Shown here: positions 1 to 634 of the stretch, piece after piece
Numbering within the stretch: the first letter of the stretch is position 1
Layout of the letters: each line of letters starts with the position of its first letter
Origin: Enterobacteria phage Kha5h
Strand: one strand, 5' to 3'
Sequence record: NC_054905.1
Length of the DNA stretch: 64,000 nt
The notes under the pieces: model-generated
The model's database searches: none
What the model was told of the DNA's origin: nothing
Seen by the model: the letters and a program-made list of their open reading frames with translations, nothing else
Translations under genes and position numbers: made by a program

Positions 1-6
1 GTTATT

Positions 7-634
7 TCATTTATATACTGATTCCGTAAGGGTTGTTACTTCATCTATTTTATACCAATGACTTTCAACCATTTCACGTTTGCTTATATCATCAAGAAAA
101 CTTGCAAGTTTTTTAGATGCAAGTTTGCTTATATCATCAAGAAAACTTGCATCTAATTGAACCGTTGAATTAACACGATGCCTTTTAACGATGCGAGAAA
201 CAACTACTTCATCTGCATAAGGTAATGCAGCATATAACAGAGCGGGTCCGATCTATTACACTAACATTAGAATTCTGGTCAAGAATAGTCTCGAATGGAG
301 AACCAGAAATTGATACTTGAATTTCGTCGCCGGAAATGTAATCTATATATTGCTCCCAAGTAATATAGAAATGTGCTAAATCACCATCTTTAGTTTCAGG
401 ATAATCACGCGCAAGGTCACACACTACAATATGTCTACGACCAGGAAGTAATGTAGGCAATGACTGGAACGTTTTAGCACCCATAATCATAATTGTACCT
501 TCAGTACGAGCTTTAAAATTTTGGAGGTCCTTTTTAACTCGTCCCCATGGTAAACCATCACCTAAGCCGAATGCTAATTCATTAAAGCCTTCGACCGTTT
601 TAGTTGGAGAATAAGCGAATACCAATTTAATCAT
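7..634 (-). pseudogene. frd: dihydrofolate reductase gene, apparently disrupted: N-terminal 141 codons intact (209..634), frameshift near 250-256, C-terminal part continues in another frame to a stop at 7..9
   Basis: N-terminal translation is DHFR-like ([22 protein letters not shown]); at the conserved VIGG region frame 0 reads VIDRTRSV then stops, while the shifted frame reads [27 protein letters not shown]...TESVYK. Confidence 0.6.
78..151. repeat. 29-nt direct repeat (78..106 and 123..151, 45-nt period) inside the frd 3' part, giving an in-frame 15-codon duplication; contains a 16-nt palindrome at 97..112
   Basis: gtttgcttatatcatcaagaaaacttgca occurs twice; aaaacttgcaagtttt is self-complementary. 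Confidence 0.8.

What the first reader, a model, noticed from the sequence alone, without database searches (positions are those of the whole stretch)
1..634. frd appears inactivated: frameshift at the conserved GG motif plus a 45-bp internal duplication
The DHFR reading frame is intact for 141 codons and then breaks where the universal VIGG motif should be: frame 0 reads VIDRTRSV..stop, while the adjacent frame continues [22 protein letters not shown]...TESVYK to a stop at 7..9. This is consistent with a 1-nt insertion around 250..256 that also creates a GATC. The downstream part has an in-frame 45-bp tandem duplication (29-nt identical cores at 78..106 and 123..151, product ...[30 protein letters not shown]) containing a 16-nt palindrome. 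At the window edge the presumed td start (ATG overlapping the frd stop) is followed by AAA TAA, though with only 10 nt visible this is weak. Together this suggests decay of the phage thymidylate-cycle genes, or a sequencing error.
Basis: seen in the sequence. Interest (0 to 1): 0.55.

Follow-up and report, generated by a model that had tools for sequence, protein, structure and literature searches.

The report
Broken DHFR gene in T4-like phage
In this T4-like phage sequence the dispensable dihydrofolate reductase gene (frd) is knocked out by two very recent, unique lesions, one of them a textbook hairpin-templated copying error; this is an ordinary pseudogene, or possibly a sequencing artefact, not decay of the thymidylate pathway.

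Summary
Window 7..634 (- strand) is a T4-type frd (DHFR) gene. It matches Shigella phage Sf24 frd base for base except at two places.

- **Lesion 1:** TGG is replaced by AGAT at 250..254. That is two substitutions plus one inserted base, not a plain 1-nt insertion. It shifts the frame inside the invariant V-I-G-G-P motif and creates a GATC.
- **Lesion 2:** a 45-nt in-frame insertion, made of 29-nt direct repeats at 78..106 and 123..151 around a 16-nt spacer at 107..122. It is not a simple tandem duplication. The spacer is two 10-nt inverted copies of sequence lying within 15 nt. This extends a weak ancestral quasi-palindrome into an 18-bp hairpin, the signature of template-switch mutagenesis.

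Neither lesion occurs in about 500 T4-like phage records or in the viral, genome or metagenome contig collections. About 100 other conserved ORFs in the window are intact, so the assembly is not generally poor.

As written, the gene cannot make active DHFR. The 'ATG AAA TAA' at the window edge is not a damaged td start. Relatives with intact frd and td carry the same relic, and an extra ORF lies between frd and td in this lineage.

Without reads I cannot separate a real mutant from a chimeric-molecule or contig-end artefact. My estimate is about 60:35. Interest is low.

The parts
209..634 (-). Truncated frd reading frame: 127 native DHFR residues, then a 14-residue out-of-frame tail ([14 protein letters not shown]) and TGA at 211..209
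   Evidence: Pfam DHFR_1 matches only residues 21-75. The DNA is identical to Sf24 frd apart from the lesions.
250..254 (-). Lesion 1: complex replacement TGG to AGAT (T>A at 254, G>A at 252, extra T at 251). Net +1 frameshift inside the V-I-G-G-P codons. Creates GATC at 250..253.
   Evidence: Alignment to Sf24, CrRp10 and ESh33. No donor sequence elsewhere in the window. The 20-mer is absent from viral and genome contigs, and the single metagenome hit is a chance match.
7..249 (-). Out-of-frame 3' part of frd (Frd residues 129-193 plus 15 inserted residues), ending at the ancestral TGA 9..7. Untranslatable: the only start codon in this frame is ATG 72..70.
123..151 (-). Direct-repeat copy 1 (5' copy in the gene sense), TGCAAGTTTTCTTGATGATATAAGCAAAC
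107..122 (-). 16-nt spacer TTGCATCTAAAAAACT. The first 10 nt are the reverse complement of the upstream TTAGATGCAA. The last 6 nt plus TGCA are the reverse complement of TGCAAGTTTT.
   Evidence: Segment decomposition against wild-type Sf24. Significance tested with shuffled spacers.
78..106 (-). Direct-repeat copy 2 (3' copy), identical 29 nt. One copy plus the spacer makes the 45 nt absent from all relatives.
113..156 (.). New 18-bp hairpin (arms 113..130 and 139..156, 94% complementary, 8-nt loop). It extends the ancestral 8-nt quasi-palindrome GTTTTCTT/AAGCAAAC.
   Evidence: I1; I5. DNA fold: -20 kcal/mol (z -4.1) against -5.1 kcal/mol (z -0.1) for the wild type.
97..112 (.). Perfect 16-nt palindrome AAAACTTGCAAGTTTT at the spacer/copy-2 junction
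   Evidence: unique in the window
2..10 (-). ATG AAA TAA, a relic of the T4-type frd-stop/td-start overlap. Shared by relatives with intact genes; not a damaged td.
   Evidence: gene maps

Best explanation
The window starts just downstream of the frd (dihydrofolate reductase) gene of a Tequatrovirus (T4-like) phage. The gene is of the Sf24/CrRp10 type and carries two unique, very recent, complex lesions about 130 nt apart. Lesion 1 (TGG to AGAT) shifts the frame inside the invariant Gly-Gly motif. Translation then ends after a 14-residue nonsense tail, and the last third of the enzyme is never made. Lesion 2 is a quasipalindrome-driven template-switch product. The growing strand reached ...AAGCAAAC and snapped back on the nearby imperfect complement GTTTTCTT. 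It copied 10 nt of the wrong strand (TTGCATCTAA), realigned and copied AAAACT(TGCA). It then returned to the proper template at the earlier TGCA and re-copied 29 nt. The net result is +45 nt and a much stronger hairpin. Shown: the anatomy, the uniqueness, the templating of every inserted base, and the loss of coding capacity. Inferred: that the lesions arose in vivo, plausibly in one error-prone repair or recombination-dependent synthesis tract. Also inferred: that they persisted because frd is an auxiliary gene whose function the host FolA can supply during propagation.
For: - **Gene identity:** 99.4% DNA identity to Sf24 frd in two pieces. Relatives encode a 193-aa Frd that matches T4 DHFR PDB 1JUV at E = 2e-119 and Pfam DHFR_1.
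- **Lesions defined by alignment:**. There are 0 other differences from Sf24 and 2 from CrRp10 within frd.
- **Motif and insertion site:** I-G-G is invariant, and no homologue varies in length at the insertion site.
- **No rescue:** the downstream frame has no usable start codon.
- **Template switching:** the 45-nt insert decomposes fully into wt477-517 forward, 493-484 reverse, 498-489 reverse, then 493 onwards forward. Only 1.8% of shuffled spacers do as well against the whole gene, and 0.1% against the local +/-30 nt.
- **Hairpin gain:** -5.1 to -20 kcal/mol.
- **Assembly otherwise sound:** 100 of about 103 JLBYU24 ORFs with strong matches give single full-length matches, and frd is the only real gene split over two frames. 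This is the only short-range repeat of its kind in 64 kb.
- **Literature on the mechanism:** quasipalindrome template switching makes imperfect inverted repeats more perfect and was first seen in T4 rIIB (PMC7202029).
- **Literature on frd:** it is listed among the auxiliary 'quasicore' genes, not the core (PMC2993671).
- **Precedent:** another deposited phage, Ec_YwIITB1, also has a frameshifted frd, at a different site.
Against: - No reads are available, so clonal support for either lesion is unknown.
- Two independent rare complex mutations in one 582-nt gene with no accompanying point substitution is improbable unless they share one cause.
- Both lesions lie within 260 nt of window position 1, which may be a contig end, where errors concentrate.
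- Lesion 1 changes all three bases towards AGATCGGA, the first 8 nt of the Illumina TruSeq adapter (from my own knowledge). That 8-mer also occurs naturally at 39307..39314, conserved in JLBYU24.
- frd is intact in essentially all other T4-like genomes examined, so selection normally keeps it.
- The truncated product is not on record in any public assembly.
Confidence: 0.6

Rival explanations
1. Artefact. The two lesions were not in the phage population's consensus genome. They come from a chimeric molecule made in vitro (polymerase template switching during amplification or library preparation) or from adapter-contaminated reads, and were taken into the assembly at a weakly supported place such as a contig end.
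For: Both lesions sit within 260 nt of window position 1 and within 150 nt of each other, which suits a local low-quality patch. Lesion 1 yields AGATCGGA, an adapter prefix. Inverted-plus-direct chimeras with microhomology junctions are also what strand-displacing polymerases produce in vitro (my own knowledge). The lesions are absent from every other public sequence searched. The gene has no ordinary substitutions against Sf24.
Against: The rest of the window shows no frameshifted conserved gene and no similar structure. The lesions are not homopolymer errors. An assembler cannot invent 10-nt inverted segments without reads that carry them, and 74 nt of perfect sequence follow the lesions to the window edge. 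The adapter match is only 8 nt, the same 8-mer occurs naturally elsewhere in the window, and the match stops where the phage sequence resumes. Whether position 1 is a contig end is unknown.
Confidence: 0.33
2. Progressive decay of the phage thymidylate-cycle genes (frd and td) under relaxed selection.
For: frd is non-functional as written. frd is an auxiliary gene (PMC2993671). One other deposited phage has a broken frd.
Against: The supposed td damage is a misreading. ATGAAATAA is shared by relatives with intact frd and td, and a 115-aa ORF lies between the two genes. frd has zero point substitutions against Sf24, the opposite of slow decay. td itself is outside the window.
Confidence: 0.05
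3. frd is still expressed as a functional enzyme, through programmed +1 frameshifting at the lesion or as two fragments that reassemble.
For: The two frames overlap for 14 codons, and the 45-nt insertion is in frame with the 3' part.
Against: The site has no slippery sequence and no relative shares the arrangement, so nothing conserves it. Any frameshifted product would still lack the invariant Gly-Gly (VID.GP instead of VIGGP). The 3' frame has no start codon before ATG 72..70, and the 3' fragment alone matches no Pfam family.
Confidence: 0.02

Closest known systems
Bacteriophage T4 dihydrofolate reductase (frd; PDB 1JUV) and its Tequatrovirus orthologues (Sf24 gp84, CrRp10 cds186)
   Same: Same locus between the frd.1-side small ORFs and td, with the same neighbours (gp32, Frd.3, Frd.2, Frd.1). 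The DNA is identical to Sf24 outside the lesions. The first 127 residues are a normal DHFR N-terminal part.
   Different: The frame is broken at the Gly-Gly motif and there is a 45-nt insertion in the C-terminal part. No intact 193-aa product can be made. About 500 phage records, 13 IMG/VR contigs and 10 further assemblies were examined. One has a different frameshift and one a lost stop; none has these lesions.
Quasipalindrome-associated template-switch mutations (Ripley model; T4 rIIB, yeast CYC1, E. coli thyA hotspot)
   Same: The ancestor has an imperfect inverted repeat. The new bases are the exact complement of sequence flanking the other arm. The mutation lengthens the palindrome from 7 of 8 bp to 17 of 18 bp. 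The junctions fall at microhomologies (PMC7202029).
   Different: Classical cases are small corrections of a few bases within the arms. Here three switches are needed, and the return to the proper template is 29 nt upstream, so an inverted patch is combined with a direct duplication (net +45 nt). The in vivo origin is not shown.
Frameshifted frd of Escherichia phage Ec_YwIITB1 (PQ356294)
   Same: Another deposited Tequatrovirus genome whose frd is split over two frames and annotated as a truncated DHFR.
   Different: A different site (near codon 108) and a different lesion type, a 4-nt deletion. It is independent of the window's lesions and equally unverified at read level.

Membership tests
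Dihydrofolate reductase (Pfam PF00186 DHFR_1), T4 Frd type | Significant match to the DHFR profile and to T4 DHFR | tested here: met
   The 141-aa product scores 55.8 bits (cut-off 25) over residues 21-75. The intact Sf24 orthologue matches 1JUV over 1-193 at E = 2e-119.
Dihydrofolate reductase (Pfam PF00186 DHFR_1), T4 Frd type | Uninterrupted reading frame covering the whole domain, including the C-terminal strands | tested here: not met
   tblastn splits the gene into residues 1-127 (one frame) and 129-193 (another frame). The 3' part alone matches no family.
Dihydrofolate reductase (Pfam PF00186 DHFR_1), T4 Frd type | Conserved I-G-G (Gly-Gly) motif intact | tested here: not met
   The motif is invariant in 16 of 16 intact homologues. 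The window reads V-I-D-R in frame 0.
Dihydrofolate reductase (Pfam PF00186 DHFR_1), T4 Frd type | DHFR enzymatic activity | not testable with these tools
   Needs an enzyme assay of infected cells or of the expressed product.
Quasipalindrome template-switch mutation | Pre-existing imperfect inverted repeat at the site in the ancestral sequence | tested here: met
   Wild-type Sf24 has GTTTTCTT, 8 nt, then AAGCAAAC (7 of 8 complementary). This pairing appears in the wild-type minimum-energy fold.
Quasipalindrome template-switch mutation | The new bases are the complement of sequence adjacent to the other arm, and the mutation increases complementarity | tested here: met
   TTGCATCTAA is the reverse complement of wt 484-493, and AAAACTTGCA is the reverse complement of wt 489-498. 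The arms grow to 18 nt at 94%. Fold energy goes from -5.1 to -20 kcal/mol. Shuffle test p is about 0.001.
Quasipalindrome template-switch mutation | Arose during DNA synthesis in the organism, not in vitro | not testable with these tools
   Needs reads or re-sequencing of the stock.
Simple tandem duplication by replication slippage | Head-to-tail copies with nothing between them | tested here: not met
   A 16-nt spacer of inverted origin separates the 29-nt copies. Tandem Repeats Finder gives only a poor array with 52% matches.
Programmed ribosomal frameshift site | The two-frame arrangement is conserved in relatives, with a slippery sequence | tested here: not met
   All relatives are in one frame. 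The arrangement is unique to this window.
Genuine pseudogene (as opposed to a sequence error) | Lesions supported by the bulk of independent reads or molecules | not testable with these tools
   No reads are available. The truncated product is not on record in any other assembly.

The most novel reading that the evidence does not exclude
Both lesions are the footprint of a single error-prone synthesis tract of at least 150 nt, with several template switches. That would be a small-scale, microhomology-mediated event during T4-type recombination-dependent replication or double-strand-break repair, possibly started by a break near the variable ORF-cassette junction between frd and td. It would be a natural example of clustered, repair-associated complex mutagenesis in a phage. 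The resulting frd-null phage would be viable and dependent on host FolA.
Probability: 0.12. Interest if true: 0.4.

Novelty: new member of a known kind. Interest (0 to 1): 0.15.

Why it matters
If real, this phage is a natural frd-null T4 relative. It should depend on host dihydrofolate reductase, so its growth may be unusually sensitive to trimethoprim. That is relevant if the phage is used alongside antifolates. The 45-nt insertion would also be a clean natural example of multi-step quasipalindrome template switching in the phage group where that mechanism was first proposed. If it is an artefact, the value is practical: the record's frd should be flagged or corrected rather than annotated as a truncated DHFR. 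Neither outcome changes the understanding of phage nucleotide metabolism.

Tried and rejected
1. **Generally poor assembly:** rejected. tblastn of 123 ORFs from JLBYU24 shows frd as the only real gene split across frames. The other split hit is an antisense ORF in the topoisomerase region.
2. **Shared allele elsewhere:** the 45-nt junction 30-mer is absent from viral, metagenome and genome contigs. The frameshift 20-mer is absent from viral and genome contigs. Its single metagenome hit (L006) is a chance match in an unrelated GC-rich contig with no other similarity. There is no match in the E. coli genomes.
3. **Ectopic donor for lesion 1 (gene conversion):** no other site in the window lies within 2 mismatches of TAATAGATCGGACC. 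The best local template is only the 4-nt AGAT, so the origin of lesion 1 stays unexplained.
4. **Illumina adapter remnant:** only an 8-nt prefix matches. The same 8-mer occurs naturally at 39307..39314 and is conserved in JLBYU24. This is suggestive at most.
5. **Independent assembly of the same phage:** the exact 141-aa product is not on record.
6. **Homing endonuclease next door as a break source:** the ORF between frd and td in relatives is phrog_1928, of unknown function, with no Pfam hit. No support.
7. **Literature on natural frd loss or selection against frd:** nothing specific found.
8. **Re-initiation or a split enzyme:** no start codon in the 3' frame except ATG 72..70.

Full report
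**What is there.** Window 1..3300 is the frd to gene 32 stretch of a Tequatrovirus (T4-like) genome, read on the - strand. It runs gp32 (2339..3247), Frd.3-, Frd.2- and Frd.1-like small ORFs, a DUF7247 ORF (891..1223), an 81-aa ORF (634..879), then frd (7..634). A megablast of 1..700 finds 538 phage records. The best are Shigella phage Sf24, Citrobacter phage CrRp10 and Shigella phage ESh33, at 99.0-99.4%. Each match comes in two pieces spanning 654 nt where the window spans 700. In all of them frd is an intact 582-nt, 193-aa gene. The Sf24 protein matches the solved T4 DHFR (PDB 1JUV) over its full length at E = 2e-119, and matches Pfam DHFR_1.

**Checking the observation.**
- Frame 0 runs 141 codons from ATG 634 to TGA 211..209.
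- The neighbouring frame continues [10 protein letters not shown]...TESVYK to TGA 9..7.
- GATC lies at 250..253, the identical 29-nt cores at 78..106 and 123..151, and the perfect 16-nt palindrome at 97..112.

The alignment to the three relatives and the difference list define the lesions exactly.
- Lesion 1 is ATTGG-CGGA to ATAGATCGGA: T>A at 254, G>A at 252 and one extra T at 251. It is a complex replacement of TGG by AGAT, not a plain insertion.
- Lesion 2 is 45 extra nucleotides.
- Apart from these, frd has no difference from Sf24 and two from CrRp10.

**Consequence for the protein.** The break falls in V-I-G-G-P. I-G-G is invariant in all 16 intact homologues I aligned, down to 63% identity, and none varies in length where the 45 nt sit. 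The truncated product keeps residues 1-127 plus 14 nonsense residues. Pfam recognises only its N-terminal third. The 3' frame is preceded by TAA TAG and has no start codon before ATG 72..70. Re-initiation or a two-piece enzyme is therefore excluded. Any hypothetical +1 frameshift would still replace the Gly-Gly. As written, the gene cannot give active DHFR. This rests on the sequence and on established DHFR knowledge, not on an assay.

**Anatomy of the 45-nt insertion.** It is not a head-to-tail duplication. Two identical 29-nt copies are separated by the 16-nt spacer TTGCATCTAAAAAACT (107..122). I decomposed the mutant sequence into the longest stretches found on either strand of wild-type Sf24 frd. 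That gives just four segments: wt477-517 forward, wt493-484 reverse (TTGCATCTAA), wt498-489 reverse (AAAACTTGCA), then wt493 onwards forward. Every inserted base is thus templated by sequence within about 15 nt.

The wild type already holds a quasi-palindrome, GTTTTCTT, 8 nt, then AAGCAAAC. The insertion extends it to 18-nt arms that are 94% complementary (113..130 and 139..156) and adds the 16-nt perfect palindrome. The predicted single-strand DNA fold goes from -5.1 kcal/mol (z -0.1) to -20 kcal/mol (z -4.1). Only 1.8% of shuffled spacers decompose as economically against the whole gene. The figure is 0.1% (23 of 20,000) when the template is restricted to +/-30 nt.

This is the signature of quasipalindrome-associated template switching. 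A stalled nascent strand uses itself or the sister strand as template and makes the inverted repeat more perfect. The mechanism was first noted in T4 rIIB (PMC7202029). Here three switches are needed, at microhomologies AAAC, A-run and TGCA, and the last return lands 29 nt upstream. That landing creates the direct repeat.

**Origin of lesion 1.** It is unexplained. No donor exists in the window, and the longest local template for the new bases is 4 nt. The new sequence AGATCGGA equals the first 8 nt of the Illumina TruSeq adapter (my own knowledge). The same 8-mer also occurs naturally at 39307..39314 and is conserved in JLBYU24, so this is a lead and not evidence.

**Uniqueness and assembly quality.**
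- None of 507 T4-like records matching the insertion region holds the insert.
- The junction 30-mer is absent from viral, metagenome and genome contig collections.
- The frameshift 20-mer is absent from viral and genome contigs. Its one metagenome hit is a chance match in an unrelated GC-rich contig.
- The exact truncated protein is not on record, while the neighbouring 81-aa gene is found in hundreds of assemblies. All ten shown have a 193-204-aa DHFR next to it.
- Of 123 ORFs of at least 70 aa taken from phage JLBYU24, 100 give single full-length matches in the window, and frd is the only real gene split across frames.
- The frd repeat is the only short-range direct repeat of at least 16 nt in the 64 kb.

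The window is therefore not a generally error-ridden assembly, and the frd lesions are a singular local event.

**The window-edge 'td start'.** ATG AAA TAA (10..2) occurs unchanged in Sf24, CrRp10 and ESh33. In T4 the frd stop overlaps the td start (my own knowledge). In this lineage a 115-aa ORF (phrog_1928, function unknown) lies between them. The real td start, ATGAAACAATACCAAG, lies about 410 nt further on. The edge feature is an inherited relic and says nothing about td. The frd-td junction is variable among relatives, holding 68-, 115- or 119-aa ORFs.

**Real mutant or artefact.**
- For a real mutant: the lesions are not of the homopolymer type, and an assembler cannot create 10-nt inverted segments without reads that carry them. 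Perfect sequence continues on both sides, and the rest of the window is clean. frd is an auxiliary 'quasicore' gene (PMC2993671). A second deposited phage, Ec_YwIITB1, has an independent frd frameshift, a 4-nt deletion.
- For an artefact: two rare complex lesions sit 130 nt apart with no point substitution. Both lie within 260 nt of window position 1, which may be a contig end. There is the adapter-like 8-mer, and in vitro polymerases make the same kind of chimera.
- A common cause would reconcile the clustering with a real origin. One error-prone repair or recombination-dependent synthesis tract could do it. T4 replication is largely recombination-dependent (PMC3016281 abstract). In yeast, break repair raises template-switch and frameshift mutagenesis about 1000-fold (bioRxiv 10.1101/2023.08.09.552703 abstract). 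That link is inference by analogy.

My estimate is about 60% real, including a dominant subpopulation, about 33% artefact, and the remainder for other readings.

**Verdict.** The interpretation 'frd inactivated' is supported at sequence level. 'Tandem duplication' and '1-nt insertion' need the refinements above. 'Decay of the thymidylate-cycle genes' is not supported. This is a new instance of known things: a pseudogenised accessory gene and a quasipalindrome template-switch mutation. Interest is low (0.15).

Noticed in passing
window 2..10 (- strand); L001:3645-4075: ATGAAATAA after the frd stop is a relic of the T4-type frd/td overlap and is shared by relatives. In this lineage a 115-aa ORF of unknown function (phrog_1928) is inserted between frd and td. 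Other relatives carry 68-aa or 119-aa ORFs, or none, so the junction is a hotspot for ORF cassettes.
   Followed up: partly
L021:447-1021 (Escherichia phage Ec_YwIITB1, PQ356294): This deposited phage also has a frameshifted frd. A 4-nt deletion near codon 108 splits it over two frames, and it is annotated as a 122-aa DHFR.
   Followed up: partly
L024:3246-3860 (GCA_019567375.2): frd is called as 204 aa. The stop codon is lost and the protein gains an 11-residue extension (NEIPRGGKYEF) that runs into the next ORF.
   Followed up: no
L023:4030-5210 and L027:4030-5906: td is split into 183-aa and 104-aa parts by an intron, with an I-TevI-type GIY-YIG endonuclease ORF in L027 and none in L023. 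Other relatives have an uninterrupted 286-aa td.
   Followed up: no
window 1531..1917 (- strand): An intact Frd.2 homologue (128 aa). frd.2 is the only 'Fit' gene of unknown function in T4 in the CRISPRi-ART screen (PMC11879866), so an essential-like unknown gene sits about 900 nt from the broken frd.
   Followed up: no
window 1..25000: The window is a mosaic. frd and its flank are 99-100% identical to Sf24/CrRp10, but over 25 kb the best records (JLBYU24, vB_Eco_Geo, Kelasse) reach only 95-97%. The source genome itself is in none of the collections searched.
   Followed up: partly
L004:2275-2622 (JLBYU24_247): The 115-aa ORF between frd and td is annotated 'putative dihydrofolate reductase' in JLBYU24. 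Its Sf24 homologue matches no Pfam family and only an unknown-function PHROG, so this is probably an annotation carry-over error.
   Followed up: partly
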